Shown here: piece after piece, positions 18,022 through 33,233 of the stretch
How the letters are laid out: each line of letters starts with the position of its first letter
Position numbering within the stretch: position 1 is the stretch's first letter
Source: an uncultured Alphaproteobacteria bacterium
GTDB taxonomy: Bacteria > Pseudomonadota > Alphaproteobacteria > Rhizobiales > Xanthobacteraceae
Assembly: GCA_963703845.1 (NCBI GenBank)
Contig: CAVPFQ010000025.1
Location: 105,486-169,485 of the forward strand
Length of the DNA: 64,000 nucleotides
Direction of reading: 5' to 3'
Notes under the pieces: model-generated
The model's database searches: none
The model's input: the letters and a program-made list of their open reading frames with translations, nothing else
Told to the model about the DNA's origin: nothing
Made by a program: the position numbers and the translations under genes

Positions 18022-18031
18022 GTTGGTGCAG

Positions 18032-18358: not shown

Positions 18359-18505
18359 GGCCTGATCCCCACGTTGAATTCGGGGATCCTAGTCGCGAGG
18401 CCGCTAGTAATGGTTAACGGCCGTAGCCCATGGGCCGAGCCCCCTCTTGATAAACGGCTTCAAGTTCAGGCTTCAAGTTCCGGCCTGCCTTGGGCCGACC
18501 CATAG

Positions 18506-18712: not shown

Positions 18713-18765
18713 GGGCCTTGTAGAAGCCCCAGCGGCGGAATTCGTTCCGCCGCCGCAAGCAGCGA

Positions 18766-19539: not shown

Positions 19540-19790
19540 GCAAACTCCCCAGGCATGCAACGGGAGCATTGGCGTCAAAGCAAAATACCGTCGGCCAAGG
19601 CCCCATACCCCGCCTTCTTGGTAGGCCGAATACCCTTAAGGGAGCGTTCGGCGACATGGTAAACGCCCGGACTCCGCGCCGATGCGTGGGTAGCGTTTTC
19701 CCCCGATATTCCACATCCGTTCCACTAGCCCGGCGCCGACAGCCTACGGTAGCATTTCGACCCTGAGCATGTTGCGTGGGGTGAGGCCGG

Positions 19791-22061
19791 ATGGCGCAGG
19801 GGCGCAGGACCCGGACGCAGGGGATCGCCGGCACATGGCCGCCGCGCGAGGCGGCGGGCGGCTTCGCGCCTTCCGGTTTCGACACATGGCCCCAGCTTGC
19901 CGCCAAACTGCGCGAATGGATTTTGGCCGAGGCCGGCGCCGGCCGCCTGCTGCCCTGGGTGCCGATCGCCTTCGGCACCGGCATTGCGTTCTATTTCGCC
20001 GCCGATCATGAACCGGTCCTGCCGGTTGCCGCCATCACGGCGATGCTGCTTTGCCTCGCCGCTCTCCTGCTCCGCCGACACAAGGCCTTTCCGGTCGCGG
20101 TAATGGTCGCGGCCATTGCGGTGGGCTTTGCCACGGCAACCCTCAGGACCGCTTGGATCGGCCATGGCGTGCTGGCACGGCCCCTCTATGGCGTCACGCT
20201 GTCGGGCTTTGTCGAGACCCGCGACATCCGCGAGCGCACCGACCGCTTCGTGCTGCATGTGGTCGCGATGGACAGTCCGCGCGCGGCGACAAAACTGGAG
20301 CGGGTGCGGCTGTCGGTGCGCAAGGGCACCGCACCCGACGTCGGCAGCTTTGTGGAATTGAAGGCGCGGCTGCAGCCGCCGCTCGCGCCCTTGCGGCCCG
20401 GCTCCTACGATTTCGGCCGCGACATGTTCTTCCAGGGTATCGGCGCCTCCGGTTTCGTCACGGGAGCGATCAAGACCGTGCAGGCGCCCGTCAGCGGCGG
20501 GCTCTCGCTGCGCTACGCCGCCATGATGCAAGGCTTGCGCGATTCCATCGACGCGCGGATCCGCACCACGCTCGACGGCGACAGGCGCGCGATCGCAACA
20601 GCGCTTCTGACCGGCCGCCGCGACGCCATCACCACGCCCGTCAACGATGCCATGTTCATCTCCGGCCTCGGCCATGTCTTGTCGATCTCGGGCTATCACA
20701 TGGCTGTCGTCGCCGGCGTGGTGTTTTTTGCGGTGCGCGCGCTGCTGGCGCTGATCCCCGCACTCGCCACCGGCTTTCCGATCAAGAAATGGTCGGCGGC
20801 CGCAGCGCTGGCCGCAGCGCTGTTTTATCTGCTGCTGTCGGGCGCCGAAGTCGCAACCCAACGCTCCTTCTTCATGACGGCGGTGGTGCTGATCGCAATC
20901 ATGGTCGACCGCCGCGCCATCACCTTCCGGACGCTCGCGGTGTCGGCGATGATCGTGCTTTTGATGGCGCCGGAAGCGCTGGTGCATCCGAGTTTCCAGA
21001 TGTCGTTCGCGGCCACGCTCGGCCTGGTGGCGCTGGTGCAGATCGGCATGCCGCGCCTGTTTGCTTCGCCCGATCATTCGGCGACCGCCAAGGTCGCGCT
21101 CTGGGGCGGCCGCGAGCTGATGACGCTGACGCTCGCCTCGCTGGTCGCGGGGCTTGCGACCACGCCCTACGCCGCCTTCCATTTCCATCGCATCACGCCC
21201 TACGGCGTCCTCGCCAACCTGGCGGCGATGCCGGTGGTGTCGGCGTTGGTGATGCCGGCCGGCTTGCTGGGCCTGGCCGCGATGCCGTTCGGCTTCGACG
21301 GCGTGTTCTGGTGGCTGATGGGCATCGGCATCGACTGGATGATCGCGGTGACGCGATGGGTCGCCGCGCTTCCCGGCGCGATCGGACGGATGGCGGCATT
21401 CGGCATCGGGCCGCTGATCGCGGCCTCGATCGGGATCGTGTTGTTGGGGCTGTTGCGGACGCCGCTGCGCTGGTCGGGCGCAGCCGTGCTGGCGCTATCG
21501 GTGGTATGGGCGCTGATGGTGCCGCAGCCGGACATCCTGATCTCCGCCGACGGCCACAATGTCGGCGTCCGGGGCAGGGACGGCCGGCTGCATTTGATGC
21601 GCACGGCGAAGGATGCGTTCCTGCTGAAGGAGTGGCTCGCCGCCGACGCCGATCCGAGGTTGCCCACCGACCCCACGCTCGGCGACGGCGTGTCCTGCGA
21701 CGGCGAGGGCTGCGTCACCGAGATGGAAGCGGGCGGTCTCGTCGCGCTGACGCTGAAGCCAGAGGCGCTGGCGGACGATTGCGCGCACGCGGCGCTATTG
21801 GTGACCGCGAGGCAGGCGCCGCCGTCATGCGCGTCGGCGGTGATCGGCCGGGATCTCTGGACCAGCCATGGCGCGATCGCGCTGTGGCGCAACGGGTCCG
21901 CCTTCAGGCTCAGCGCCAACAAGCCGCGCGGCGTCGACCGGCCATGGTCGCCGGCGGCAGGCGACGAGCCGGCGACCGAACCAGCGCTGGTTTCGCGCGC
22001 AAAACCGCCGCGCGCGGTGGACGCGACGCCCGCGGAGGCCGATCTTCAAGCGGAGGAGTGA
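19791..22061 (+). CDS. comEC: ComEC/Rec2-family DNA uptake membrane protein
   Basis: DUF4131-like region, SGLGHVLSISGYHM, HPSFQMSF, many TM segments; usual lexA-comEC-gltX neighbourhood. Confidence 0.9.
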   Translation: MAQGRRTRTQGIAGTWPPREAAGGFAPSGFDTWPQLAAKLREWILAEAGAGRLLPWVPIAFGTGIAFYFAADHEPVLPVAAITAMLLCLAALLLRRHKAFPVAVMVAAIAVGFATATLRTAWIGHGVLARPLYGVTLSGFVETRDIRERTDRFVLHVVAMDSPRAATKLERVRLSVRKGTAPDVGSFVELKARLQPPLAPLRPGSYDFGRDMFFQGIGASGFVTGAIKTVQAPVSGGLSLRYAAMMQGLRDSIDARIRTTLDGDRRAIATALLTGRRDAITTPVNDAMFISGLGHVLSISGYHMAVVAGVVFFAVRALLALIPALATGFPIKKWSAAAALAAALFYLLLSGAEVATQRSFFMTAVVLIAIMVDRRAITFRTLAVSAMIVLLMAPEALVHPSFQMSFAATLGLVALVQIGMPRLFASPDHSATAKVALWGGRELMTLTLASLVAGLATTPYAAFHFHRITPYGVLANLAAMPVVSALVMPAGLLGLAAMPFGFDGVFWWLMGIGIDWMIAVTRWVAALPGAIGRMAAFGIGPLIAASIGIVLLGLLRTPLRWSGAAVLALSVVWALMVPQPDILISADGHNVGVRGRDGRLHLMRTAKDAFLLKEWLAADADPRLPTDPTLGDGVSCDGEGCVTEMEAGGLVALTLKPEALADDCAHAALLVTARQAPPSCASAVIGRDLWTSHGAIALWRNGSAFRLSANKPRGVDRPWSPAAGDEPATEPALVSRAKPPRAVDATPAEADLQAEE

Positions 22062-22070
22062 TTTTCTCTC

Positions 22071-22175
22071 CGTCATTCCGGGGCAGCCCGCAGGGCTGAA
22101 CCTCAGATGCGCAATTGCGCATTGGGGAATCTCGAGATTCCGGGTTCGATGCTTTCGCATCGCCCCGCAATGACG
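22071..22175. repeat. REP/MITE-like palindromic element, family A
   Basis: Terminal inverted repeats cgtcattccgggg/ccccgcaatgacg, core ggaatctcgagattcc, internal palindrome atgcgcaattgcgcat. Confidence 0.8.
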
Positions 22176-22180
22176 AGAAT

Positions 22181-22423
22181 CTATTTCTCCTGCGACGCCG
22201 GCACCTGCCGCAGTTCGAAGGCACCGAGATGAAACTCTTCACTCGCGTCGGTTGCGGGTGCCCCCGCGGTCTTGACCAGGGCGAACGTAGCGTCCGGGAA
22301 TTGCTGCCAGACCGCGAGATCTTCCGGCGCAATGGTGAGCCAGCCGAACCGGAACATGTAGCGGCCGGGTTCGGTGACGTGTCCGACTTGCTGCCAGCTG
22401 ACCTTGTTGACGCCCAATCCCAC
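22181..22423 (-). CDS. Small hypothetical protein
   Basis: Aromatic-rich ORF WQQVGHVTEPGRYMFRFGWLTI; AAGGA upstream; exact start uncertain. Confidence 0.6.
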   Translation of the reverse strand: MGLGVNKVSWQQVGHVTEPGRYMFRFGWLTIAPEDLAVWQQFPDATFALVKTAGAPATDASEEFHLGAFELRQVPASQEK

Positions 22424-22598
22424 CGTCCTTCGCGCGAGCGGTCAAAACGGCGACGCGCCGCCAGCCGCCTTCGCGCCAGTCCTGTCCCATTCGTTTCTTC
22501 GGCACACACATTCTGGTCGCGATCCCTTCAGGAGAATCGCGTGTAACCCGGCGCGGTGCCGATCCCGCCGGCCGGAGCCGGCGGGGCGGCGAAAGGTC

Positions 22599-23018
22599 TC
22601 AGCCGGCGGAGAGCGGGGTAGCTCTCGGTTCGCTAACCGGCCGTGCCCGTTCCGCGGGCTGTGCGACGACAGGCAATTGCAGCACGGTGGCGCGCTGGCC
22701 CTCGCAGAGCAACGTCACCAGCACGTGGCTACCGTCGGGAAATTCGATCGCGTCATGGTGGCGGTCGGGAATGTGCCGGTCGATCTCGCCGAACTTGCCG
22801 ACCCGGAAATTGATTTCCCGCGTCCAGATCCAGCGGTTGTCGTAGCGGACATTGTCGGCGAAGGCGAGTTCGGTGCCCGGAAGCATGCAGACCGCGACCG
22901 TCGGGTCGGCTTCGGACGCAAAGCCGCGGGTCGCCGTGCCGCGGAACATCGTCGTGATCAGCGTCTCTCCGACCTCAGCGGGGCGGGTCGCGACGGCATG
23001 CAGGCTATAGTCACACAT
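22599..23018 (-). CDS. Hypothetical protein beginning MCDYSLH
   Basis: AGGAG RBS before ATG 23018; globular composition with Cys/His/Asp clusters (HHDAIEF). Confidence 0.75.
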   Translation of the reverse strand: MCDYSLHAVATRPAEVGETLITTMFRGTATRGFASEADPTVAVCMLPGTELAFADNVRYDNRWIWTREINFRVGKFGEIDRHIPDRHHDAIEFPDGSHVLVTLLCEGQRATVLQLPVVAQPAERARPVSEPRATPLSAG

Positions 23019-23178
23019 CGGATTGCTCCTCGTTCGAGATAACGAACCCGCGCCGCTGTGAGAGGCGCAGGCCTCTATCAGAGTGGACAGTAACCGCCGA
23101 GACTCTTCCCGGTTGCAGGCAATTCTGCGACGGCGGCCGAGGCGGCCGATCACAAATGCGTTTTTTGGATCTGCGACG

Positions 23179-23294
23179 GCCTGATGGTTCGAGACGCGCG
23201 GCCATGCCGCGCTCCTCACCATGAGGGGACGGAGCGGGAGCTGCCAGACCCTCATGGTGAGGAGGCGCTCTTGCGCCGTCTCGAACCATGAGGC
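23179..23294. repeat. Inverted pair of REP-like elements, family B
   Basis: atggttcgagacg...ctcctcaccatgaggg and its inverted copy ccctcatggtgaggag...cgtctcgaaccatgagg. Confidence 0.8.
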
Positions 23295-23309
23295 CGCGCC
23301 GCTCAGGAT

Positions 23310-23391
23310 CGTCATTCCGGGGCGATGCGAAGCATCGAACCCGGAATCTCGAGATTCCGGGTTCGCGTCTGCGACGCGCCCCGGAATGACG
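23310..23391. repeat. REP/MITE-like palindromic element, family A
   Basis: cgtcattccggggcg...cccggaatctcgagattccggg...cgccccggaatgacg. Confidence 0.85.
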
Positions 23392-23398
23392 GCAGCTC

Positions 23399-24100
23399 TC
23401 AATACTTCCGGTAGAGCCCGATCAGCTTGCCCTGGATCTTGACCCGGTTCGGCGGCAGGATGCGGACCTCGTAAGAGGTATTGGCGGGTTCCAGCGCGAT
23501 CGAGGCGCCGCGGCGGCGGAAGCGTTTTAGCGTCGCCTCCTCCTCGTCGATCAGGGCGACCACGATGTCGCCGGTCTCGGCGCTCTCGTTGCGCTGGATC
23601 AGCGCCATGTCGCCGTCGAGAATGCCGGCATCCACCATGAAATCGCCGCGCACTTCGAGCGCGTAATGTTCGCCGGCGCCCAACATGTCCGGCGGTACGC
23701 TGATGGTGTGGCTGCGGGTCTGCAGCGCCTCGATCGGCGTGCCCGCGGCGATCCGGCCCATCACGGGGACCGCAACCGGGCGGCTGCCGTCGTCGTCGGC
23801 GGAGACGCTGGCCGAGCGGACCTTCCCGAGCGTGCCTTCGATGACGCTCGGCGTGAAGCCGCGGCGTCCGTTGCCGCCGCCGGACAGCTCCGGCAGCTTG
23901 ATGACCTCGATGGCGCGGGCGCGGTTGGGCAGGCGGCGGATGAAGCCGCGCTCTTCCAGCGCCGTGATCAGGCGGTGGATGCCGGACTTGGAGCGCAGAT
24001 CGAGCGCATCCTTCATCTCGTCAAAGGAGGGCGGAACGCCACTTTCCTTCAGGCGCTCGCTGATGAATCGCAAGAGTTCATATTGTTTGCGCGTGAGCAT
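23399..24100 (-). CDS. lexA: SOS repressor LexA (catalytic Ser reads as Phe, probably a sequence error)
   Basis: MLTRKQ w[11 protein letters not shown] (A-G cleavage site), ATLKRF catalytic Lys; RGDFM instead of RGDSM. Confidence 0.95.
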
Positions 24101-24181
24101 CTCGACCAATCCCCAGTTTGATACGTGCCGTCAGACTCCGAGGTGTTCAACAGACACCAGCACTCGAAACAAATCATGAAC

Positions 24182-24207
24182 GAACACTATATGTTCCATA
24201 TGTGTTC
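24182..24207. promoter_or_regulatory. Alphaproteobacterial SOS (LexA) box upstream of lexA
   Basis: GTTC-catatgt-GTTC at 24193-24207, preceded by GAAC-actatat-GTTC at 24182-24196. Confidence 0.88.
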
Positions 24208-24266
24208 CGCAACCACTTAATTTCCCGTCAACGCGGCCCCGCATTGTTGGAACCGCTATCTCCGCC

Positions 24267-25478
24267 TCACACGGGAAGCCGCAGGATCTCGCAAACCGAA
24301 CCCGTGGCGGCGGCTTTTGCGAACGGCGCGCGGATCACAAGCGCCCGTGCCGCAGCGAGATTTGCAAGCAGCGAGGAATCCTGATGGCCGACGGGGATGG
24401 CGACGAGCGCGCCGTCCGCACGCCGCTCGAGGCGGGCGCGAAGATAGTCCTCGCGCTGGTCGTTCTCGCCGACGTCGCGCCCGAGCAGCGCGCTCTCGCT
24501 GGTATGATGGACGTCCGCGCGCCCCGACAGCGCGCGAATCAGCGGCACCAAGAACAGGAAGCCGCAGACATAGGAGGAGACGGGATTGCCGGGCAGGCCG
24601 ATCACCCGCATGCCCTTGAGTCTGCCGTGCATCATCGGCTTGCCCGGTCGCATCGCGATCTTCCAGAACGCCATCTCCACGCCCTCGGCCTCCAGCGACC
24701 GTTTCACCAGGTCACGGTCGCCGACCGAGGCGCCGCCGGTCGTGATCAGGATGTCGGCGGCGCAGTCGCGGGCGCGGCGGATGCCGGAGGTCGTGGCCTC
24801 GACGGTGTCGGCGGCAATGCCGAGATCGACGATCTCGGCGCCCTGGCTGCGGGCCAGCGCCCGCAGCGCGTAGCCGTTGGAATAGACGATCTGCCCGGGG
24901 CCGGGGGTTTGCCCGGGCATGACGAGTTCGTCGCCGGTCGCGAGTAGCGCCACCTTCGGCCGGCGGCGCACAGCCAATTCCGGGTAGTTCATGCCGGCGG
25001 CCAGCGACAGGTCGCGGTCGGTGAGGCGGCTTCCCTTGGCCAGCAGCACATCGCCTTCGCGAAAATCGATGCCGGCAGGCCGGATGTGCCGTCCCGAGCG
25101 CGCGGCTTCGGTGACGGTGACGGTGGCGCCATCGACGCTGGTGTCTTCCTGGATCACCACCGCGTCGGCACCGTCGGGGATCACCCCGCCGGTGAAAATC
25201 CGCACCGCTTCGCCGGCGCCCAGCGCCTTTTCGAACGGACGGCCGGCCGCGACCTCGCCGATCACGGTAAGCCGTGCCCCGATCTTGGCAGCGTCCGTCG
25301 CGCGCACTGCATAACCGTCCATCGCCGACATCGCCTGTGGTGGCTGCGTGCGCCGCGCGGTGACGTCGCGCGCCAGCACGCGATGATAGGCGGCATCCAG
25401 CGCGACCGTCTCTTCAGCCAACGGTTCCGCGCCCGCGAGGATGGCGGCAAGCGCATCGGCGACCGGCATGAGTGCCAC
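24267..25478 (-). CDS. moeA: Molybdopterin molybdotransferase MoeA
   Basis: SAMDGYAV, RIFTGG, ATGDEL, TTGGASVG, KIAMRPGKP, LPGNPVS. Confidence 0.95.
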   Translation of the reverse strand: MALMPVADALAAILAGAEPLAEETVALDAAYHRVLARDVTARRTQPPQAMSAMDGYAVRATDAAKIGARLTVIGEVAAGRPFEKALGAGEAVRIFTGGVIPDGADAVVIQEDTSVDGATVTVTEAARSGRHIRPAGIDFREGDVLLAKGSRLTDRDLSLAAGMNYPELAVRRRPKVALLATGDELVMPGQTPGPGQIVYSNGYALRALARSQGAEIVDLGIAADTVEATTSGIRRARDCAADILITTGGASVGDRDLVKRSLEAEGVEMAFWKIAMRPGKPMMHGRLKGMRVIGLPGNPVSSYVCGFLFLVPLIRALSGRADVHHTSESALLGRDVGENDQREDYLRARLERRADGALVAIPVGHQDSSLLANLAAARALVIRAPFAKAAATGSVCEILRLPV

Positions 25479-25507
25479 GGCGAAAACTCCTAAGGACTCT
25501 ATCCGCT

Positions 25508-25571
25508 GTCATTGCGAGCCAACGGGTCGGCGCAAGGCGCCGCCCGATGACAGGCTCCGCGAAGCAATCCA
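25508..25571. repeat. REP-like element, family C
   Basis: gtcattgcgagc...cgaagcaatcca; same ends as the element at 30327. Confidence 0.7.
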
Positions 25572-25580
25572 TCTTTCTTT

Positions 25581-25661
25581 CGTCATTCCGGGATGGTCCG
25601 AAGGACCAGACCCGGAATCTCGAGATTCCGGGTTCGATGCTTCGCATCGCCCCGGAATGAC
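25581..25661. repeat. REP/MITE-like palindromic element, family A
   Basis: cgtcattccggg...cccggaatctcgagattccggg...cccggaatgac. Confidence 0.85.
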
Positions 25662-25703
25662 AAAGAGCTTCTGCGCTCGCAATAACGGCTGCTGCTTTAT
25701 AAT

Positions 25704-26333
25704 CTAAATCCCGAGCGCGGCCAGCGCCTGCGCGACATCATCCGGCGACCTCACATGCACCCCGATCAGTCCCTGCGCGCGTGCGCCCGCGATATTGTCG
25801 GCGGAATCGTCGAAGAACACGATCCGCTCCGCCGGAACCCCGATCGCCCTGACCACATGATCATAGGCCGCTGCATCCGGTTTCCGCAGCCCGATCGAGG
25901 AGGAAAGAAAGACTTCGCGGAAATGGCCGAGCACATCGGCATGCAGAGCCGAGAAATGCGCGACATGGGCGTTGTTGGTATTGGAGAAGGCATAGAGCGG
26001 CAGTTTTTTCGCCGCGCGCGCCAGCGCCTGCGCGATGCCGGGCACCTCGCCGGCAAAGATCGCGTTCCACCCCTCCAGGAACTCGGCGTCGGACAGCTTT
26101 ATCCCCATCGCCGCGCACTGGCCGGCGAAATATTCCGCATCGCCGATCTCGCCCCGCTCGTGCCGATGGTTGAGCTCGCCGAGCGACAGCCGCCCGACCA
26201 GTTGTTCCGGCGCGCAAGCCGCATGACGTGCCCAACAGGAAAACGCCCTGGAAAAATCGATGTCGAGTACGACGCGGCCGAGATCGAACAGGAGCGCGTC
26301 GGCCGAGCCGGGGGAGAGTGGGGGGAGCGTCAT
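25704..26333 (-). CDS. HAD-superfamily hydrolase (YihX-like)
   Basis: LLFDLGRVV motif I, FSNTN motif II, KPD motif III, FFDD motif IV. Confidence 0.88.
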   Translation of the reverse strand: MTLPPLSPGSADALLFDLGRVVLDIDFSRAFSCWARHAACAPEQLVGRLSLGELNHRHERGEIGDAEYFAGQCAAMGIKLSDAEFLEGWNAIFAGEVPGIAQALARAAKKLPLYAFSNTNNAHVAHFSALHADVLGHFREVFLSSSIGLRKPDAAAYDHVVRAIGVPAERIVFFDDSADNIAGARAQGLIGVHVRSPDDVAQALAALGI

Positions 26334-26399
26334 GGGGGCGGTGTACGAAAATCGGGGAGAGGGGGCAACGAAATCGGCACCGCCGTCACGCACAATATT

Positions 26400-27114
26400 T
26401 CACTGGACCAAGACCGCGGTCTTCATCTTCTCATAAACCTGCAGGAGCAGTTCGGCCTGCTGGCCCTCCGACATCAGAGCCAGCGGTGTGTTTGGCGAAA
26501 TAGCCCCCTGAAACCTGGCCAACGGAGAGTCTGCGAAGGTCGACGACTTCACCGCAATCCAGAACACCAGGCAGCCTCTGTTGTTCGCCGCCTCCAATAG
26601 TTCCGGGAGTTCCTCGTTGGTGATGAACGGCGAGTTGAGGAAGTCCTGGGTGACTAGGAATACGGCAACGCGCGCCGAGCCAAGCGCCTTGCGTATTTCA
26701 ACAAGCCACTCCGCACCTGGGCGTATCTCCGTGTCATCCCAGACACAGAATCAGATTTCGGTTTTCAAGCGGCCGCAGGAACTGCCGGAGCTTCTCCAGC
26801 CACTCCGCGTCCTTGTGGCTATAGCTGATAAACACCGGTTTTGTAACGCTCACTTTCGGCGCGACGAAGTGCTGGAGATAGAGGACGCGACGAGCCGCGT
26901 CGACTTCGAAGGTCACCTCCAGCGGAGGCGAAGGATGTTTATAGAGCCGCACCTTTCCGTCCTGGCTGATCGAGCGGACTCGACCTGGGTAGGCGTCCGG
27001 ATTGTCAGCCAGCGTATCAAGCAAATCGAAAAGTATGGACAGAGCCTCCTGAGGCAGATCCTTTCGACTTTCCTTTCCGCTGTCCGAGTATTGAATCGCG
27101 TACGCCTCAGGCAT
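26400..27114 (-). CDS. RelE/ParE-like domain fused to a TIR domain (about 237 aa once one extra base near 26747 is removed)
   Basis: N-terminal YAIQYSDSGKESRKDLP...LADNP...LEVTFEVDAARRVLYL; then VFISYSHKD; after the frameshift WDDTEIRPGAEW...ARVAVFLVTQDFLNSPFITNEEL; GGAG RBS; start overlaps the upstream stop. Confidence 0.8.
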
Positions 27115-28147
27115 CGTTGGCTCCATCTGGAGACGCATGGGGGCCATTGCCTGCGAGCCTTACAGCGACGACCTGAATGCGTTGCGAGGCGTGGTCGGCG
27201 ACATACTCGATCTCGACGTGTTTGCCTTTAGTCGTGTCCGGAAGCGTCGCGCCTTCAGGGCGGGGATTTGCTTTCTCCTGCGCTTCGAGTCGCGCGCCGT
27301 TTGTACTGAGCTCCGCCACAAGGTCCCCGAGCTCGATCCGGTCCGCGACGTCCAGCGTGGCTCCCTGCTTGGAAGCATCTCGACTGAATGCGATCGCGTA
27401 GGCCTTTTGTCGAAAGGCGGCGCTTTGCAAGACAGCGTCCTTTCGATCCTTCGTGATCTGCGCGGACTCGATTATCGCGGTCTGTTCCAGGAGCTCGGCC
27501 GGAACAGAAACGACTTCGGGGCCTTCTCGCTCTTGCAGGCTCTGAAGCGCTTTCCTCAGCTGCTCGGCACTTGTCGCCAGGTCCATTCGCTCGCGCTGAT
27601 TCCGCAGATATCGAGCGCCAAATAGTAAACCGGCCGTGATCCCGTAGAACGGCAGCGCGATGAATAGACCTATCCGCTCGTCAGGTGTACGCGCGTCGAT
27701 CGCGGCTTTGCTCGCGACGACCAGGATCAAAATACCGATGCCGGGCAACAGAACGCTGCGAAGCCGGCTGATCCATCAACTCCGCCGGCTTTCCTTCCAT
27801 AGGGAGGTGGAAAGAGAACCGAGGCCGAGTCGCTTCAGCCGCCTGTCTTCGCGAAAAGTCTTGAGAAGCAGCGGAATGTTCAGCGCCAGCGAGAGCATCG
27901 CGACAAGAAAGGACACCGCGAAGACGAGTCCCAGAACCAAGGCCAGCACCCAAAGCCAGTCTCCGCTGAACGAGGCGAAAATGATGGCAAGGAAACATCC
28001 GAAGAGGCTTGCCATGGCCACATCGACGCTGACCAATAACGCGCGGTATGTAATTCTTTCGAGACGCGTTAATTGCAGCGTCTGCCCAGCACTCGAAAGT
28101 ACCTCAATGGTACGCTCGAGTTCATTCGAGGAGAGTGCGACAGCCAT
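27107..28147 (-). CDS. Four-TM membrane protein with a coiled coil and C-terminal RelE/ParE-like domain (about 346 aa through an internal TGA at 27776-27778)
   Basis: Track ORFs 27776..28309 and 27107..27748 are in the same frame and separated by one TGA; four hydrophobic segments; C-terminal KAYAIAFSRDASK...VEIEYVADHASQRIQVVAV. Confidence 0.72.
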
Positions 28148-28423
28148 GGCGCCGAGAACCAAAAATCCAAACCTAACACCCTTGCCGTTCAGACGACAGA
28201 AGTTTTCGCGTGGCGCGGGTGCGAATCTTAGCCACAACCTTGACGCCGCGTCGCCCCGGGGACGCTGACGGACAGCCGCGTCCCGCGCCCGCAGACCGGA
28301 GGTCGACACTCGCGCCCGCTATGCAGGCCTGCAAGGTGCGCTTCGGTCAAACGAAGATGAATCGTCGGTCCAACCGGATTTCCTCACTGCTCCGCGGATC
28401 GGACAAGTGCGGGCCGCTCCCCC

Positions 28424-29551
28424 TCAATACCGGTACGGCTCGATCTCCAGCAGCGGATACGCGCTGAACACGCTCGGCATATTCACCGGCGCGGCTTGAT
28501 GCAGATAGCTCTTGTCGAGCTCGGCGAATTTCGTCACCCCGAGCAGGCCGAGACAGCGCACCACTTCGTCTTCCAGCAGCTCCAGCATCCGCACGATGCC
28601 CTGCTCGCCCTTGGCAGCCAGCGCACAGCAGTGCAGCCGGCCGATGCCGACGAGGTCGGCGCCAAGCGCGATCGCTTTGACGATGTCGGTACCACGATTG
28701 ATGCCGCCGTCCACCATGATTTTGGCGCGACCCTTCACGGCGGCGACGATTTCGGGCAGCACATGCATCGAGCCGCGGCCGTGGTCGAGTTGGCGGCCCC
28801 CATGGTTGGAGACGTAAATCCAGTCGACACCGTGATCGAGCGCGATCTCCGCGTCCTCCGCGGTGGCGATGCCCTTGATCACCAGCGGTATCTTGAACTT
28901 GTCCTTGATCAGCTTCACCGTCCGCCATTCCAGCCCCTTCTGGAAGTCGCCGCCGGTGGCGCGCACGCGGCTGGCGCGGACATAGCGCTTGGCGATGTCG
29001 CGCTCGCGCCGGCTGTAATGGGCGGTATCGACGGTCAGGCAAAACGCGCTGTAGCCGCTCTTGATGGCGCGGGCGACGCGGTCCTCGACAAAGGCGTCGT
29101 CGCCGCGGACATAGAGCTGATACATCCGCAGCGCATCGGGGGCGGCTTCCGCGGTCTTCTCCAGGCCCGGCTCCGACACCGAGCTCAGCATATGCGCAGC
29201 CCCGAACGAGCCGGCGCCGCGCACTACCGCCGCGCCGCCTGCGGGATCGAACAGTTCGAGCGCGCCGACGGGGGCGATCATCACGGGAATCCGCAATTTG
29301 CGGCCGAACAGAGCGACGGAAGCGTCGACGCGGGCGACATTGCGCAGCACGCGCGGCCGGAACGCGATCTCGTCGAGCGCCAAGCGGTTGCGGCGCATCG
29401 TGGTCTCGGTCTCGGCGGCGCCGGCGATATAGTCCCAGCAATTCTGGTTGAGGTTGGCCCGCGCCCTGCTGATCAGTTCGTGCAGGTTCTGGAACTCCTC
29501 GCCGCTGGCGCCGAGTTCGATTTGCGACGGAATGCGTGGCGCCTCGTTCAT
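28424..29551 (-). CDS. FMN-dependent alpha-hydroxy acid oxidase/dehydrogenase
   Basis: IAPVG, LTVD, VIKGI, SNHGGRQLD, DGGINRGTDIVKAIALGA. Confidence 0.92.
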   Translation of the reverse strand: MNEAPRIPSQIELGASGEEFQNLHELISRARANLNQNCWDYIAGAAETETTMRRNRLALDEIAFRPRVLRNVARVDASVALFGRKLRIPVMIAPVGALELFDPAGGAAVVRGAGSFGAAHMLSSVSEPGLEKTAEAAPDALRMYQLYVRGDDAFVEDRVARAIKSGYSAFCLTVDTAHYSRRERDIAKRYVRASRVRATGGDFQKGLEWRTVKLIKDKFKIPLVIKGIATAEDAEIALDHGVDWIYVSNHGGRQLDHGRGSMHVLPEIVAAVKGRAKIMVDGGINRGTDIVKAIALGADLVGIGRLHCCALAAKGEQGIVRMLELLEDEVVRCLGLLGVTKFAELDKSYLHQAAPVNMPSVFSAYPLLEIEPYRY

Positions 29552-29697
29552 GGTGTCCTCCCCGGAAAATGCGTGTTTGTCTCGCCTTGGTCATTCGCCT
29601 ATCGCGTCCTGCGCTTCCGCACCATCCCGAAAATTGCTATGGCTGTCGGCAGCGGGAGCAGAGCAGGAAATCCCGGCGACCAAAGGAGGGGACGTAC

Positions 29698-30261
29698 ATG
29701 ACGAAATTGGCACTATGGGCGGCGCTGGGCCTGAGCCTAGCCGGCGCAACTTCCGCCACCGCGCAGAGCATGACGATTGCCAGCGCCGAGATCAAGGAAG
29801 GCGCCACCATCGCCAACGAGCAGGTGTTCAAGGGCTTTGGCTGCACCGGCGATAATGTGTCGCCCAGCTTGAGCTGGAGCGGGGCGCCTGCGGCCACCAA
29901 GAGCTTTGCGGTCTCCATCTACGATCCGGACGCGCCGACCGGCTCCGGCTGGTGGCACTGGGTGGTGTTCAACATTCCGGCCGCCACGACTTCGCTGCCG
30001 AAGGGTGCCGGCGACGTGAAAAAGAAGCTGATGCCGAAGGGCGCGATCCAGAGTCGGACCGATTTCGGCGCCGACGGCTATGGCGGCCCATGTCCGCCGG
30101 CGGGCGACAAGCCGCACCATTACCAGATCACGGTATTCGCCGTTGACGTCGACAAGCTGCCCGACGCCAAGAACGACATGGCCTCCGCCGCGCTGGTCGG
30201 CTTCGACCTGCATTTCCACACGCTGGCGAAAGCGACGCTGACCGGCCTCTACGGCCGCTGA
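29698..30261 (+). CDS. Periplasmic YbhB/YbcL (PEBP, Raf kinase inhibitor-like) protein
   Basis: Signal peptide; SPSLSWSGAP, DPDAPTGSGWWHWVV, YGGPCPP, HHYQITVFA. Confidence 0.9.
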   Translation: MTKLALWAALGLSLAGATSATAQSMTIASAEIKEGATIANEQVFKGFGCTGDNVSPSLSWSGAPAATKSFAVSIYDPDAPTGSGWWHWVVFNIPAATTSLPKGAGDVKKKLMPKGAIQSRTDFGADGYGGPCPPAGDKPHHYQITVFAVDVDKLPDAKNDMASAALVGFDLHFHTLAKATLTGLYGR

Positions 30262-30272
30262 TGCTCCGCGGC

Positions 30273-30300
30273 GTAGGGTGGGTTAGCGCAGCGTAACCCA
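30273..30300. repeat. GTAG-type REP element
   Basis: gtagggtgggttagcgcagcgtaaccca: GTAG tetramer followed by a gggtta/taaccc hairpin. Confidence 0.65.
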
Positions 30301-30326
30301 GGCGAGATCGCGGAAGTATGTCTTGG

Positions 30327-30449
30327 CGTCATTGCGAAGAGCACTCTTGTCCGCCGAAGCCCGCCTTCGGGCGAAGGCGGATGCGACGAAGCAATCCATC
30401 GAGCAACACGCAAGAAAGTTGGATTGCTTCGCTTACGCTCGCAATGACG
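30327..30449. repeat. REP-like element pair, family C
   Basis: cgtcattgcga...cgaagcaatcca and inverted tggattgcttcg...cgcaatgacg. Confidence 0.75.
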
Positions 30450-30627
30450 CTCTTTGGCCGCTGAACTTAAATCCTCATCCGCCGCCCCGGCGGAATGCCG
30501 GCATCGAACTTCGGGAATTCCGGCTTTGCCGCGGTGGCCAAGCCCGTATATCGTTACGCGATCCGAACAAGACCGCTCGGCGCGCTGCCGGCATGACGAT
30601 GTCGGCCGCCATACGGGGAAATCAGAC

Positions 30628-31800
30628 ATGTCCGGGATGAAGCTGTTTTCGCCGCTCACGATCCGGGGCGTCGAGCTGAAGAACCGCATCGTGGTGCCGC
30701 CGATGCACCAATATTCGGCCATCAAAGGGTTTCCGACCGACTGGCACCTGATGAATGCCGGCAAATTTGCCGCCGGCGGCGCCGGGCTCGTCGTGGTCGA
30801 ATCGACCAAGGTCGAGCGGCGCGGCTGCGGCACCGTGGGCGATCTCGGGATCTGGGATGACGCCTTTGTCGAGCCGCTCGCGCGGCTGGTAAAATTCATC
30901 AAGCAGCAAAACGCCGTAGCCGGCATCCAGCTCGGCCATTCCGGCCGCAAGGCGCGCGCCAATCGCCCCTGGGAAGGCGACGGGCCGCTGAAACGGACGC
31001 CCGAGATCGACGACTGGGAGGCGTGGTCGCCGGTGGCGCCGAGCGCGATCGCCCATAGCGAGAAATGGCCGGTGCCGCGGGCGCTGGAGCGCTCCGAGGT
31101 GAAGGAGCTGGTGCAGGCCTGGGGGCAGGCGGCGCGCCGCGCCCACGAGGCCGGCTTCGACGTGCTGGAACTGCATGGCGCGCACGGCTATCTCGTGCAC
31201 GAGTTCCTGTCGGAACGCTCCAACCAGCGCAGCGACGAATATGGCGGTTCGGAATCGAACCGGATGCGCTTCATCGCCGAGGTCACCGAAGCCGTGCGCA
31301 CGCACTGGCCCGAGGACAAGCCGCTGTTCGTGCGGCTGTCGGTGCAGGACAATGCCGGATGGGGCCCGGAACAGAGCGCGCGGCTGGGGAAAATCCTGAA
31401 ACCCAAAGGGGTCGACGTGATCGACTGCTCCTCCGGCGGCATCACCGATGCGGCCCCGATCCTGGGCAAGGAGATCAGATACAGCTACCAGGTTCCGTTG
31501 TCGGAATATGTCCGCCGTAACGCCGATATCATGACCATGGCGGTTGGCCTCATCATCCATGGCGACCAGGCCGAGCAGATCCTGCAGGCGGGGCAGGCCG
31601 ATTTGATCGCGGTCGGGCGCGAAATCCTCAATAATCCGAACTGGCCGATGGATGCTGCCCTGAAACTGGGCATTGAGGGCGCATTCCGCGGCGTGCCTCC
31701 GCAGTTCGGCTGGTGGCTCGGCACCCGCGCCAAGCGGGGATTTGGCACAATGCCGTCAACCTGGCAAAACGGCCTCAAAGATACCGGAAAGGTGATGTGA
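30628..31800 (+). CDS. NADH:flavin oxidoreductase (Old Yellow Enzyme, YqjM-like)
   Basis: KNRIVVPPMHQYS, QLGHSGRKA, LHGAHGYLVHEFLS, NQRSDEYGGS..NR. Confidence 0.92.
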   Translation: MSGMKLFSPLTIRGVELKNRIVVPPMHQYSAIKGFPTDWHLMNAGKFAAGGAGLVVVESTKVERRGCGTVGDLGIWDDAFVEPLARLVKFIKQQNAVAGIQLGHSGRKARANRPWEGDGPLKRTPEIDDWEAWSPVAPSAIAHSEKWPVPRALERSEVKELVQAWGQAARRAHEAGFDVLELHGAHGYLVHEFLSERSNQRSDEYGGSESNRMRFIAEVTEAVRTHWPEDKPLFVRLSVQDNAGWGPEQSARLGKILKPKGVDVIDCSSGGITDAAPILGKEIRYSYQVPLSEYVRRNADIMTMAVGLIIHGDQAEQILQAGQADLIAVGREILNNPNWPMDAALKLGIEGAFRGVPPQFGWWLGTRAKRGFGTMPSTWQNGLKDTGKVM

Positions 31801-31898
31801 AAACGGTGTTGTTGAGTTTGTCGGACCGGCCCAGATAAATGCTATCCGGGCGAGGCCGGCAGCCGGTCAAAATCGAAAGCGAGAAGGTCCGCCATCCC

Positions 31899-33233
31899 AT
31901 GCGCAAGAATGTCCTGTTTTTCCTCGGCGCCGCGGCAGGTGCATGCCTGACCCTTCTCGTCACCTCGCCGCATGGCCCGCAATGGACCCAGGCGGCGCGG
32001 GCCGATGGCGGCCCCAACACCTATTCGTCGCTCAATCTGTTCGGCGAGGTGTTCGAGCGGGTCCGCAGCGACTACGTCGAGAAGCCGGACGACAGCAAGC
32101 TGATCGAAGGGGCGATCAACGGCATGGTTTCCTCGCTCGACCCGCATTCGCGCTACATGAACGACAAGGCCTGGCGCGACATGCAGGAGACCACGCAGGG
32201 CGAGTTCGGCGGGCTCGGCATCGAGGTCACCATGGAGAACGGCCTGGTCAAGGTGGTCTCCCCGATGGACGACACGCCGGCGGCGAAGGCCGGCATCCTC
32301 TCGGGCGACCTGATCACGGAGATCGACGGTGACGCCGTTCAGGGGCTGACGCTCGAGCAGGCCGTGAACAAGATGAAGGGTCCGGTCGACAGCAAGACCC
32401 ACCTCAAGATCATGCGCAAGGACGTGGACAAGCCGATCGACGTCACGATCACCCGCGAGATCATCCGGGTGCGTCCGGTCACCTTCCGCACCGAGAGCGG
32501 CGACATCGGTTATATCCGGATCGCCTCGTTCAATGAGCAGACCACCGACGGCCTGAAGAAGGCGATCGCGGAGATTTCGAAACAGATCCCGCAGGACAAG
32601 CTGGCGGGCTACGTCGTCGACCTCCGCAACAATCCCGGCGGCCTGCTCGACCAGGCGGTGTCGGTGTCGAGCGCGTTCCTGGCGCGCGGCGAGGTGGTCT
32701 CGACGCGGGGCCGCACGCCCGAGGAAACCCAGCGTTTCAGCGCCCGCGGCGGCGATCTCACCAAGGGCAAGCCGGTGGTGATGCTGATCAACGGCGGATC
32801 GGCCTCGGCTTCCGAGATCGTGGCCGGCGCACTGCACGATCACAAGCGTGCCACCCTGATCGGCACCCGCTCGTTCGGCAAGGGCTCGGTGCAGACCATC
32901 ATTCCCCTCGGCGCCGGCAACGGCGCGTTGGCGCTGACCACCGCGCGCTATTTCACGCCATCGGGCCATTCGATCCAGGCGCAGGGCATCAAGCCCGATA
33001 TCGAGGTGCTGCAGACGGTGCCCGACGAGCTGAAGGATCGCCCCGAATTGCAGGGCGAGGCGTCGATGCGCGGCCATCTGTCGGCCGAAGGCGCGGAGGC
33101 GACCGGTTCGCAGTCCTACGTTCCGCCGAATGAGAAGGACGATAAGGCGCTGGCGGCGGCCTACAATTTCCTGCGCGGCGTTACCGTCAATGCCGACGTG
33201 CCGTCGCAGCCCAAGGCCGCCGTGCCGAACTAG
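31899..33233 (+). CDS. S41 carboxy-terminal processing protease (CtpA-like)
   Basis: LDPHSRY, PDZ (FGGLGIEV), DLRNNPGG, SASASEIV, SFGKGSVQ. Confidence 0.92.
   Translation: MRKNVLFFLGAAAGACLTLLVTSPHGPQWTQAARADGGPNTYSSLNLFGEVFERVRSDYVEKPDDSKLIEGAINGMVSSLDPHSRYMNDKAWRDMQETTQGEFGGLGIEVTMENGLVKVVSPMDDTPAAKAGILSGDLITEIDGDAVQGLTLEQAVNKMKGPVDSKTHLKIMRKDVDKPIDVTITREIIRVRPVTFRTESGDIGYIRIASFNEQTTDGLKKAIAEISKQIPQDKLAGYVVDLRNNPGGLLDQAVSVSSAFLARGEVVSTRGRTPEETQRFSARGGDLTKGKPVVMLINGGSASASEIVAGALHDHKRATLIGTRSFGKGSVQTIIPLGAGNGALALTTARYFTPSGHSIQAQGIKPDIEVLQTVPDELKDRPELQGEASMRGHLSAEGAEATGSQSYVPPNEKDDKALAAAYNFLRGVTVNADVPSQPKAAVPN

What the first reader, a model, noticed from the sequence alone, without database searches (positions are those of the whole stretch)
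26400..28147. Candidate new defence module: 4TM-RelE-like protein coupled to a RelE-like-TIR protein
Seen: two minus-strand genes overlap by 8 nt (ATGCCTGA, with GGAG upstream). They are more AT-rich than most flanking core genes (hand counts: 30/60 GC at 28021-28080, 33/60 at 27961-28020) and sit between an HAD hydrolase and a hydroxy-acid oxidase. Gene 1 ends, and gene 2 begins, with a similar ~85-aa segment (KAYAIAFS vs EAYAIQYS) that has the RelE/ParE beta-alpha-alpha-beta-beta-beta pattern. Gene 2 ends in a TIR domain. Known: bacterial TIR domains cleave NAD+ or make signalling molecules in Thoeris, CBASS, Pycsar and Avs systems, and TM proteins are common effectors. Inference: the two RelE-like domains may pair and tether or gate the TIR at the membrane, or the TIR may signal to the TM protein. 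I do not recognise this architecture from described systems. The ORF track hides it in four fragments.
Basis: partly seen in the sequence, partly recalled or inferred. Interest (0 to 1): 0.9.

Follow-up and report, generated by a model that had tools for sequence, protein, structure and literature searches.

The report
Membrane-anchored TIR module with paired RelE-fold domains
Two overlapping genes encode a four-helix membrane protein and a TIR (NAD-cleaving type) protein that each carry a copy of a toxin-like RelE fold, probably used to dock them together; the pair is conserved, rare and undescribed, and its two apparent breaks in this window are most likely sequencing errors.

Summary
Gene 1 (28147-27107, minus) encodes a 4-TM protein with a helical stalk and a C-terminal RelE/ParE-fold domain. 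Gene 2 (27114-26400) encodes a RelE/ParE-fold domain followed by a TIR domain. They overlap by ATGCCTGA. Both folds were confirmed by AlphaFold2 and Foldseek, and the two small domains are paralogues.

The pair is a real unit. Gene-1 homologues were found in 6 of 6 loci with a full-length gene-2 homologue and in 0 of 78 TIR-only loci. The ATGNNTGA/TAA overlap is conserved. Natural single-chain fusions exist in two forms: 4TM-RelE'-RelE-TIR and 4TM-RelE-TIR.

Both RelE-like domains are acidic and lack RelE's catalytic basic residues, so they look like docking adaptors rather than RNases. The TIR keeps its conserved Glu, and its nearest relatives are effector TIRs on STAND/ROCO proteins.

A defence role is plausible but unproven. 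None of about ten contexts is a defence island, and there are no plasmid, phage or viral hits.

The "lesions" (an in-frame TGA, not a frameshift, and one extra base) both lie at GANTC methylation motifs. They are absent from near-identical short-read contigs, so they are most likely long-read assembly artefacts.

Verdict: new variant of TIR conflict systems.

The parts
27107..28147 (-). Gene 1: 346-codon membrane protein (4TM, conserved cytoplasmic loop, helical stalk, RelE/ParE-fold domain). It is read as one ORF once codon 124 is Arg.
   Evidence: Full-length homologues of 340-360 aa start with the same MAVALS motif. 167 hits were found, the best 86% identical. Pfam, PADLOC and NCBIfam give no match.
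27614..28042 (-). Four hydrophobic segments (about aa 36-58, 64-92, 131-149, 160-178). Predicted topology is N-in/C-in.
   Evidence: Kyte-Doolittle scan. The TM2-TM3 loop has 12 K+R and the segment after TM4 has 6 K+R, which fits the positive-inside rule. The TM sequences themselves are poorly conserved.
27758..27871 (-). Highly conserved basic cytoplasmic loop between TM2 and TM3 (NIPLL..FRE..RLK.LGL.SLS.SLWKESRRSRWISR).
   Evidence: This is the densest run of invariant columns in the gene-1 alignment. It is recognisable in the distant fused relatives P0259 and P0313.
27776..27778 (-). In-frame TGA at codon 124 of gene 1; probable assembly artefact (true codon CGA, Arg).
   Evidence: 82 of 99 homologues have R here. 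Short-read contigs of runs X2, X22 and X23 read G at 27778, giving CGA. The corrected base restores a GACTC (GANTC) motif. 5 of 21 substitutions between the window and the short-read contigs are this same G1>A / C5>T change at GANTC, P = 3e-8.
27416..27604 (-). Cytoplasmic helical stalk with the family signature IESAQI..ERKDAVLQS.
   Evidence: The AF2 model has two long helices (residues 2-25 and 36-65 of the 165-aa soluble construct). The columns are invariant. The motif is kept in all fused relatives.
27143..27415 (-). RelE/ParE-fold domain of gene 1 (RelE'); acidic, probably non-catalytic.
   Evidence: The AF2 model shows beta-alpha-alpha-(alpha)-beta-beta-beta, with core pLDDT 82-91. The best Foldseek PDB hits are RelE1, RelE, RelE2 and HigB2 (E 3e-4, TM-target 0.65). 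Median pI is 5.4.
27107..27114 (-). 8-nt overlap ATGCCTGA (start of gene 2 / stop of gene 1), with GGAG at 27121-27124. This suggests translational coupling.
   Evidence: Read directly from the sequence. The same ATGNNTGA (or TAA) overlap occurs in L081, L082, L083, L085, L086, L087 and L002.
26400..27114 (-). Gene 2: RelE/ParE-fold domain plus TIR domain. It is 237 aa once the extra base at 26747 is removed.
   Evidence: 380 homologues were found, nearly all 237-243 aa, the best 94% identical. P0364 on the syntenic contig L090 is exactly the corrected protein.
26839..27114 (-). N-terminal RelE/ParE-fold domain of gene 2 (aa 1-92).
   Evidence: AF2 pLDDT is 90.2, with beta-alpha-alpha-beta-beta-beta-beta. 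The top 50 Foldseek PDB hits are all RelE/YoeB/HigB/ParE/Cami1 (best E 2.3e-5, TM 0.74-0.78). Median pI is 6.3. Across diverse members the conserved residues are P39, Y58, H60, P61, P63, E66, T68, D72 and H82.
26403..26838 (-). TIR domain of gene 2.
   Evidence: Pfam TIR_2 E 2.9e-14 (54 bits against a cut-off of 28) and TIR E 7e-5. PADLOC SAVED-TIR 2e-14 and ThsB 1.4e-12. The motif S.F[IV]xxxE[LI]P, with Glu168 in corrected numbering, is conserved across the family.
26747..26747 (-). One extra base that shifts the frame of gene 2; probable assembly artefact.
   Evidence: Homologues read LIRVWDD (102 of 117). Short-read contigs of X1, X3, X31 and X33 all lack this base. It sits directly beside a GAATC (GANTC) motif. 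2 of 3 extra bases in 20 kb of the window are at GANTC.
28148..28423 (-). Upstream intergenic region (presumed promoter of the pair).
   Evidence: No sigma-70-like site was found by the simple scan. Not analysed further.

Best explanation
The locus encodes an intact, conserved two-protein unit.

Shown:
- Protein 1 is an inner-membrane protein with four TM helices, a conserved basic cytoplasmic loop, a helical stalk and a cytoplasmic C-terminal RelE/ParE-fold domain.
- Protein 2 is cytoplasmic, with a paralogous RelE/ParE-fold domain followed by a TIR domain that keeps its conserved Glu.
- The genes are always together, overlap by 8 nt, and in some lineages are one polypeptide.

Inferred:
- The RelE fold here has lost its RNase role. 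It serves as a coupling adaptor, like an effector-associated domain. The two copies (possibly with the conserved stalk helix) dock the TIR protein onto the membrane protein.
- A signal sensed at or through the membrane protein then changes its oligomeric state. That brings TIR domains together and switches on NAD+ cleavage, arresting or killing the cell.
- This would make it an abortive-infection-type conflict or defence module.

The stop codon and frameshift seen in the window are consensus errors of a long-read assembly at methylated GANTC sites, not real mutations.
For: Obligate pair:
- The gene-1 HMM hits 6 of 6 loci that carry a full-length gene-2 homologue and 0 of 78 loci with only a related TIR.
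- The pair recurs in further metagenome contigs.
- The overlap ATGNNTGA/TAA is conserved in 7 loci.

Fusions:
- P0313, P0316, P0340, P0352 and P0353 (559-585 aa; the four compared, P0313, P0316, P0352 and P0353, are ~42% identical to one another; P0352 occurs on two contigs from two samples) are 4TM-stalk-RelE'-RelE-TIR.
- P0259, P0321 and P0326 are 4TM-stalk-RelE-TIR.

Folds and paralogy:
- Both domains give RelE/ParE-superfamily top hits in Foldseek.
- The two domains align to each other by hhalign and by cross-HMM search.

Adaptor rather than RNase:
- pI is 5.4-6.3, against about 9.7 for E. coli RelE.
- By secondary-structure register, RelE K54, R61, R81 and Y87 have no counterpart. The K52-equivalent R56 is not conserved.
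- The domain family is small: 111 representatives among 1.84 billion. Where a C-terminal partner is present, it is always a TIR.

TIR as effector:
- Glu168 and the surrounding motif are conserved.
- The nearest TIR relatives (39-47% identical) are terminal domains of LRR-Roc-COR, EAD8-NACHT, NB-ARC and nSTAND1 proteins.

Coupling logic:
- The arrangement matches the published EAD principle: the same small domain on a core protein and on the adjacent effector, with direct fusions elsewhere (PMC7159879).

Lesions as artefacts. Methylation-induced G>A nanopore errors are documented in PMC11610573 and bioRxiv 10.64898/2026.01.14.699587.
Against: - There is no functional evidence of any kind.
- None of about ten contexts is a defence island. 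A PADLOC scan of 72 neighbouring proteins gave only generic hits: exonuclease III, a radical-SAM protein and a cold-shock domain.
- The family is absent from plasmids, phages and IMG/VR.
- The RelE'-RelE contact was not modelled, because no multimer prediction was available.
- A conserved polar cluster (Y58, H60, E66, T68, D72, H82) on the sheet of the gene-2 domain could be a catalytic or ligand-binding site, so 'adaptor only' may be wrong.
- The TIR could make a signal rather than deplete NAD+.
- It is inferred, not known, that the window comes from a nanopore assembly. The truncated gene-2 product also occurs in one Logan contig (P0363).
Confidence: 0.5

Rival explanations
1. Thoeris-like signalling pair. 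The TIR protein senses infection through its RelE-fold domain and makes an ADP-ribose-derived signal. The 4TM protein is the effector: it binds the signal with its own RelE-fold domain and breaches the membrane.
For: - PADLOC ThsB models hit the TIR (E 1.4e-12).
- Two-gene TIR plus TM-effector operons are a validated and expanding class: Thoeris II and types V-VII (bioRxiv 10.64898/2025.12.03.692087).
- The conserved polar cluster on the RelE-fold sheet could be a ligand pocket.
Against: - Producer and receiver occur fused in one chain in several lineages. Known Thoeris systems do not show this.
- The putative receptor domain is a paralogue of the producer's own N-terminal domain, not a known nucleotide-binding fold.
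- NCBIfam Thoeris models fall far below their cut-offs.
- The nearest TIR relatives are effector TIRs on STAND/ROCO proteins.
- The pair is not enriched next to defence genes in the contexts seen. That is the criterion used to define Thoeris types.
- No term linked to this family occurs in that paper's tables (the files were truncated).
Confidence: 0.2
2. Toxin-antitoxin-type module. Gene 2 is a toxin (RelE-like ribosome-dependent RNase and/or TIR NADase). The upstream membrane protein is its antitoxin, neutralising it through the stalk helix or the RelE' domain.
For: - The RelE/ParE fold is the hallmark of type II toxins.
- The gene order, with the neutraliser upstream and an overlapping downstream toxin, is typical.
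- The pair is a solitary, patchily distributed, lower-GC islet, like many TA loci.
- His, Glu and Asp residues are conserved on the sheet.
Against: - Pfam RelE/ParE/YoeB/HigB models do not match even at E <= 1.
- The domain is acidic and lacks RelE's basic catalytic residues.
- There is no DNA-binding antitoxin domain. A 346-aa 4TM protein is not a labile antitoxin.
- Stable fusions of 'toxin' and 'antitoxin' exist.
Confidence: 0.08
3. Not a conflict system. The pair is a membrane-associated NAD+-linked signalling or housekeeping device of soil Proteobacteria.
For: All contexts are metabolic or housekeeping, with no defence neighbours. The pair is chromosomal only.
Against: - Distribution among genomes is very patchy: 2 of 185,579 species representatives carry the full pair, one alpha- and one betaproteobacterium.
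- The insertion sites vary, and GC and GC3 are lower than in the host genes.
- Transposase and Prim-Pol genes neighbour the pair in two loci.
- The TIR lineage is shared with STAND/ROCO conflict proteins.
- All of these are marks of mobile conflict genes.
Confidence: 0.15
4. The lesions are real, and in this lineage the module is a decaying pseudogene pair.
For: - The TGA is shared by a second long contig (L090), and the truncated 126-aa gene-2 product is shared by a Logan contig (P0363).
- Toxic modules are often inactivated.
Against: - Seven short-read runs with >=99%-identical sequence show only the intact alleles.
- Both lesions are at GANTC, where the window shows a strongly enriched G1>A / C5>T pattern and further extra bases (P = 3e-8).
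- Apart from the extra base, the window and L090 have no differences at all in either gene. There is therefore no sign of relaxed selection.
Confidence: 0.1

Closest known systems
Effector-associated-domain (EAD) coupling in bacterial NTPase-centred conflict systems (Kaur, Burroughs, Iyer, Aravind 2020, PMC7159879)
   Same: - The same small domain sits at the terminus of a core protein and at the terminus of the effector encoded by the adjacent gene.
- In other lineages the effector is fused directly to the core.
- TIR is a typical effector, and the TIR's closest relatives sit on such STAND/ROCO proteins.
   Different: - The adaptor here has a RelE/ParE toxin fold and matches none of the Pfam EAD families.
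- The core is a 4TM membrane protein, not a vWA-MoxR, GTPase or STAND NTPase.
- The domain is seen with TIR only, not with a range of effectors.
Thoeris systems with membrane effectors (type II ThsB plus TM-Macro; types V-VII; bioRxiv 10.64898/2025.12.03.692087)
   Same: A two-gene operon of a TIR protein and a multi-TM protein. The TIR carries an extra, non-TIR domain.
   Different: - There is no Macro, SLOG, SLATT, DUF2270 or DUF6650 domain.
- The partner is not recognised by PADLOC or NCBIfam.
- The partners share a paralogous domain and occur fused.
- No defence-island context was seen.
RelBE / ParDE / YoeB-YefM / HigBA type II toxin-antitoxin toxins
   Same: The fold. Top Foldseek hits are 3g5o, 1wmi, 4fxe, 9g12 and 7v5y, with TM 0.65-0.78. 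The small size (~85 aa) is also shared.
   Different: - No sequence-family match.
- Acidic rather than basic.
- Catalytic residues are missing.
- No antitoxin is present.
- The domain is embedded in larger proteins.
Cami1 (CARF-RelE, cA4-activated ribosome-dependent RNase; PDB 8phj, 8phb)
   Same: A RelE-fold domain fused to an immune signalling domain. It appears among the Foldseek hits.
   Different: In Cami1 the RelE domain is the active effector, and the partner is a CARF sensor. Here the partner is a TIR, and the RelE fold looks non-catalytic.
TIR NADase effectors of CBASS, Pycsar and STAND (Avs-like) proteins
   Same: TIR_2-type domain with a conserved Glu. The best PADLOC hit is SAVED-TIR. 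The presumed output is NAD+ cleavage on oligomerisation.
   Different: No cyclase, SAVED, STING or NTPase is present in or beside the locus. Activation would come from a membrane partner.

Membership tests
RelE/ParE toxin superfamily | Compact beta-alpha-alpha-beta-beta-beta fold superposable on solved RelE/ParE toxins | tested here: met
   Gene-2 N-terminal domain: pLDDT 90, all 50 top PDB hits are RelE/YoeB/HigB/ParE, E 2e-5, TM 0.74-0.78. Gene-1 C-terminal domain: E 3e-4, TM-target 0.65, with lower model confidence.
RelE/ParE toxin superfamily | Sequence match to a curated RelE/ParE/YoeB/HigB family model | tested here: not met
   Pfam and NCBIfam gave no such hit at E <= 1. Profile searches of PDB sequences found no RelE.
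RelE/ParE toxin superfamily | Basic surface and catalytic residues of the mRNA interferases (RelE K52, K54, R61, R81, Y87 or the YoeB Glu/Arg/His/Tyr set) | tested here: inconclusive
   pI is 5.4-6.3, against about 9.7 for RelE. By strand register, RelE K54, R61, R81 and Y87 have no equivalent, and R56 is not conserved. However, Y58, H60, E66, D72 and H82 are conserved, and their role is unknown.
Type II toxin-antitoxin module | Small labile antitoxin with a DNA-binding domain encoded next to the toxin | tested here: not met
   The only partner is a 346-aa 4TM protein with no Pfam domain. Fused forms exist.
TIR domain proteins | Match to the Pfam TIR/TIR_2 model above the gathering score | tested here: met
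   TIR_2 scores 54 bits against a cut-off of 28. TIR scores 23.1 against 21.3.
TIR domain proteins (enzymatic) | Conserved catalytic Glu at the start of helix alphaC (W/F-x3-4-E-L motif) | tested here: met
   S.F[IV]xxxE[LI]P with Glu168 is invariant in close homologues and 87% conserved in 49 diverse members. The equivalence to the catalytic Glu rests on motif position, not on a structural superposition.
TIR domain proteins (enzymatic) | NAD+ cleavage or signal synthesis | not testable with these tools
   Needs biochemistry.
Thoeris | TIR gene paired with a recognised effector (ThsA SIR2-SLOG, Macro-TM, caspase-like, ThsF-L) | tested here: not met
   Gene 1 has no PADLOC, NCBIfam or Pfam hit. 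The NCBIfam Thoeris model ThcB4 scores 12 bits against a cut-off of 220.
Thoeris | Enrichment next to known defence genes | tested here: not met
   None of about ten contexts is a defence island. A PADLOC scan of 72 neighbouring proteins gave only generic hits. The sample is small.
CBASS / Pycsar | Adjacent CD-NTase or pyrimidine cyclase gene | tested here: not met
   The neighbours are an HAD hydrolase and an FMN oxidase in the window, and unrelated genes elsewhere.
EAD-coupled conflict systems (PMC7159879) | The same small domain at a terminus of the core protein and of the adjacent effector, with the effector fused directly to the core in other lineages | tested here: met
   Paralogy. Adjacency. 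Fusions.
EAD-coupled conflict systems (PMC7159879) | Membership of a described EAD family and an NTPase (vWA-MoxR, GTPase, STAND) core | tested here: not met
   No Pfam EAD hit at E <= 1. No NTPase gene is in or beside the pair.

The most novel reading that the evidence does not exclude
The RelE/ParE toxin fold has been recruited as a heterotypic docking adaptor. It couples a TIR NADase to a dedicated four-helix membrane sensor. This would define a new, membrane-surveillance type of TIR immune system in soil Proteobacteria. It exists in split form (two genes) and in fused form (one gene), and the split form arose by duplication of the adaptor followed by gene fission.
Probability: 0.35. Interest if true: 0.75.

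Novelty: new variant of a known kind. Interest (0 to 1): 0.62.

Why it matters
TIR proteins are central to immunity in bacteria, plants and animals. How their enzymatic activity is held off and then triggered is an open question for most bacterial families.

This pair would add three things:
- a membrane-anchored TIR;
- a new use of a classic toxin fold (RelE/ParE) as a protein-protein coupler rather than an RNase;
- a clean natural series (4TM-RelE-TIR, 4TM-RelE'-RelE-TIR, and the split pair) that makes the coupling hypothesis directly testable.

The locus is also a cautionary example. Two apparent inactivating mutations in an interesting gene pair are best explained by methylation-motif errors of a long-read metagenome assembly.

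Tried and rejected
- Sequence-only tests for RelE failed. These were Pfam and NCBIfam at E <= 1, and HMM searches of PDB sequences with both domain profiles. Only fold comparison showed the relationship.
- phmmer of the whole gene-2 homologue against PDB found nothing. A family profile found only weak TIR hits: TLR2, MAL and plant TIRs.
- No flanking direct repeats, tRNA gene, promoter-like or terminator-like sites mark the islet.
- No relatives were found in plasmids, phages or IMG/VR.
- The pseudogene reading, which I held at first, was dropped after the short-read comparison and the GANTC pattern.
- Comparing the window with the other long contig L090 did not show GANTC enrichment (8 of 228 substitutions, 2 of 18 indels). 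The test is uninformative because both are probably long-read assemblies with the same bias. Only the comparison with short-read contigs was decisive.
- A dN/dS test between the window and L090 was impossible, because the module is identical in both.
- Runs X18, X25-X30 and X32 held no matching contigs.
- The Thoeris survey paper and its tables, the E. coli TIR survey and the two Aravind-lab papers contain no RelE-TIR architecture.
- Six repeat-rich proteins among the representative hits (P0267, P0303, P0324, P0332, P0343, P0347) are spurious.
Full report
**What is in the sequence**

On the minus strand, 28147-27107 and 27114-26400 are two reading frames that share the octamer ATGCCTGA, with GGAG seven bases upstream of the second ATG.

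Gene 1 is one continuous frame of 346 codons, interrupted by an in-frame TGA at 27778-27776. It is not a frameshift. Gene 2 changes frame at 26747.

Alignment with close homologues fixes both starts (MAVALS..., MP..YAIQYS) and both lesions:
- The TGA replaces a codon that is Arg in 82 of 99 homologues.
- The window has one extra T in ATTC[T]GTGTCTGG, where 102 of 117 homologues read LIRVWDD.

The module has GC 0.58 and GC3 0.66-0.75, against 0.65-0.66 and 0.78-0.88 for the neighbouring LexA, MoeA, HAD and hydroxy-acid oxidase genes.

**The lesions are probably not biological**

Short-read contigs of soil metagenomes that are at least 99% identical to the window read G at 27778, giving CGA (Arg), in three runs. 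They lack the base at 26747 in four runs. None supports the window's version.

Over 14000-33900 the window differs from such contigs at 21 substitutions and three extra bases:
- Five substitutions convert a GANTC in the short-read allele into AANTC or GANTT in the window. The change is always G1>A, or its complement C5>T. The sites are 26371, 27778, 30469, 31743 and 31818.
- About 0.09 such substitutions are expected by chance (binomial P = 3e-8).
- Two of the three extra bases are also in or beside a GANTC: 18377 and 26747.

GANTC is the CcrM methylation motif of Alphaproteobacteria (my own knowledge). G>A consensus errors next to methylated bases are a documented nanopore artefact (PMC11610573; bioRxiv 10.64898/2026.01.14.699587).

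The window belongs to a 188-kb NCBI/ENA contig. A syntenic 486-kb ENA contig (L090) shares the TGA but has an intact gene 2 whose product is exactly the corrected protein. Apart from the one extra base, the module is identical in the two contigs.

I therefore treat both genes as intact in the organism. I put the residual chance that the lesions are real at about 0.1.

**Domains**

Gene 2:
- Residues 94-190 match Pfam TIR_2 (E 2.9e-14). PADLOC hits are restricted to TIR models.
- Residues 1-92 have no sequence-family match. An AlphaFold2 model built on 34 homologues is confident (pLDDT 90) and has the order beta-alpha-alpha-beta-beta-beta-beta.
- Its 50 best PDB matches are all RelE, YoeB, HigB, ParE or Cami1 (best E 2.3e-5, TM 0.74-0.78).

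Gene 1:
- It has no Pfam, PADLOC or NCBIfam match.
- It has four hydrophobic segments. The TM2-TM3 loop is strongly basic and highly conserved, and the stretch after TM4 is basic. Both ends are therefore cytoplasmic.
- Its soluble region models as two long helices followed by beta-alpha-alpha-(alpha)-beta-beta-beta (pLDDT 75, core 82-91). The best PDB matches are again RelE-family toxins (E 3e-4).

The two small domains are paralogues. hhalign aligns 79 columns (E 6e-5), and an HMM of the gene-1 domain hits the N-terminal domain of many gene-2-type proteins at E 1e-9 to 1e-4.

**The pair is a unit**

- Both families have hundreds of full-length relatives, mostly in soil metagenomes.
- In one-genome-per-species GTDB representatives, only Nitrosomonas sp. 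Nm84 and Microvirga massiliensis carry the full-length gene 2. Both have gene 1 immediately upstream.
- A gene-1 HMM hits 6 of 6 loci with full-length gene 2, and none of 78 loci that carry only a related TIR.
- Further contigs looked up from either protein again show the pair.
- The overlap ATGNNTGA (once TAA) with an upstream GGAG-like motif is conserved, which suggests translational coupling.

A profile of the gene-2 N-terminal domain finds only 111 representatives among 1.84 billion, so the domain family is small. Where more sequence follows, it is a TIR.

Single-chain versions are among these hits:
- P0313, P0316, P0340, P0352 and P0353 are 4TM-stalk-RelE'-RelE-TIR. They are 559-585 aa, and the four compared (P0313, P0316, P0352, P0353) are about 42% identical to one another. 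P0352 occurs on two contigs from two samples.
- P0259, P0321 and P0326 are 4TM-stalk-RelE-TIR.

These fusions argue for physical coupling of the two window proteins. They also suggest a history: duplication of the adaptor domain, followed by gene fission.

**What the RelE fold is doing**

- Both domains are acidic (median pI 5.4 and 6.3), whereas E. coli RelE is about 9.7.
- By strand register, RelE's K54, R61, R81 and Y87 have no counterpart. The K52 equivalent (R56) is not conserved among 49 members that are 27-62% identical to the window protein.
- This argues against a ribosome-dependent RNase.
- A polar cluster (Y58, H60, E66, T68, D72, H82) is conserved and unexplained. It may be the docking surface, a ligand pocket or a different active site.
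- The stalk motif IESAQI..ERKDAVLQS, directly before the RelE-fold domain, is the most conserved soluble segment and is kept in all fusions. It could occupy the groove that antitoxin helices occupy in RelBE-type complexes. That last point is inference only.

**What the TIR is doing**

- The motif S.F[IV]xxxE[LI]P, with Glu168 in corrected numbering, is conserved throughout.
- By position, this is the Glu of the W-x3-E-L motif of enzymatic TIRs. I did not verify this by superposition.
- The closest TIR relatives in genomes (39-47% identical) are terminal domains of LRR-Roc-COR, EAD8-NACHT, NB-ARC-PPR/TPR and nSTAND1 proteins, or are fused to FGE-sulfatase domains. These are effector positions in conflict systems, not ThsB-like signal producers.

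**Context**

- In the window, L090, L001, L081, L083, L085, L086, L087 and the P0352 contigs, the pair sits alone among metabolic or housekeeping genes.
- In L002 and L082 it is near transposase, Prim-Pol and HTH genes.
- A PADLOC scan of 72 neighbouring proteins gave only generic hits.
- There are no relatives in plasmids, phages or IMG/VR.
- No flanking repeats or tRNA genes were found.

Patchy distribution, varied insertion sites and lower GC point to horizontal transfer. The usual guilt-by-association evidence for defence is missing.

**Mechanism and comparison with known systems**

The best-supported reading is a membrane-anchored TIR complex.
- The paralogous RelE-fold domains act as coupling adaptors. 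This follows the principle described for effector-associated domains (PMC7159879).
- A change in the membrane protein drives TIR assembly and NAD+ cleavage.

Shown: the folds, the paralogy, the obligate pairing, the fusions and the conserved Glu. Inferred: the docking, the trigger at the membrane, the NADase output and the defence role.

The locus is not a member of any known family:
- Thoeris types: effector not recognised, models below cut-off, no defence context.
- CBASS or Pycsar: no cyclase.
- Type II TA modules: no antitoxin, no catalytic set.
- The described EAD families: no model match, no NTPase core.

Searches of the literature held here found no RelE-TIR architecture.

I rate it a new variant of TIR-based conflict systems. 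It is of real but moderate interest until a phenotype is shown.

Noticed in passing
window 14000-33900 (sites 26371, 27778, 30469, 31743, 31818; extra bases at 18377, 19608, 26747): Compared with >=99%-identical short-read contigs, the window shows G1>A / C5>T changes that destroy GANTC motifs (5 of 21 substitutions, P = 3e-8). It also shows extra bases at GANTC. This pattern suggests methylation-induced consensus errors of a long-read assembly. Other apparent stops or frameshifts in this window should be checked against it.
   Followed up: partly
window 18377 and 19608: Two further single extra bases relative to short-read contigs. The one at 19608 lies in a C run, at the junction of two overlapping minus-strand ORFs (18766-19578 and 19247-19984). 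This looks like one gene split by a frameshift. The one at 18377 lies between short ORFs on both strands.
   Followed up: no
window 25288-25951 and 23296-23959: Short-read contig depth spikes to 18-128x, against 1-8x elsewhere. Many contigs end or branch at 25541-25580. The MoeA-HAD intergenic region contains a 22-nt inverted repeat (25600-25643). This is probably a multi-copy short repeat element shared by many genomes in these soils.
   Followed up: no
L090 10047-10749: In the syntenic 486-kb contig, LexA is split into 185-aa and 54-aa pieces, whereas it is intact in the window. That assembly also has 15 single-base (and 3 longer) insertions or deletions relative to the window over 12 kb, so it carries its own consensus errors.
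   Followed up: partly
P0271 (729 aa, representative search): A relative with an extra N-terminal region that contains a second, weak TIR-like match (residues 313-442), ahead of RelE-fold-TIR and without the 4TM module. This is a fourth architecture of the family.
   Followed up: no
L003-L080 (genome loci with related TIR domains): The TIR lineage closest to this family sits on LRR-Roc-COR-TIR, EAD8-NACHT-TIR, TIR-NB-ARC-PPR/TPR, TIR-nSTAND1-FGE-sulfatase and TIR-FGE-sulfatase proteins. The hosts are cyanobacteria, Acidobacteriota and Chloroflexota.
   Followed up: partly
L082 5339-8955: A 3.6-kb stretch with no called gene lies directly upstream of the pair. The region is rich in transposase, RHH, HTH and Prim-Pol genes. 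It may hold degraded or uncalled mobile-element genes.
   Followed up: no
L086 19343-21269: A radical-SAM protein with a PADLOC pVip-model hit (E 2e-16) lies next to a DUF7146/Toprim gene, about 8 kb from the pair. It may be a generic radical-SAM enzyme rather than a viperin.
   Followed up: no
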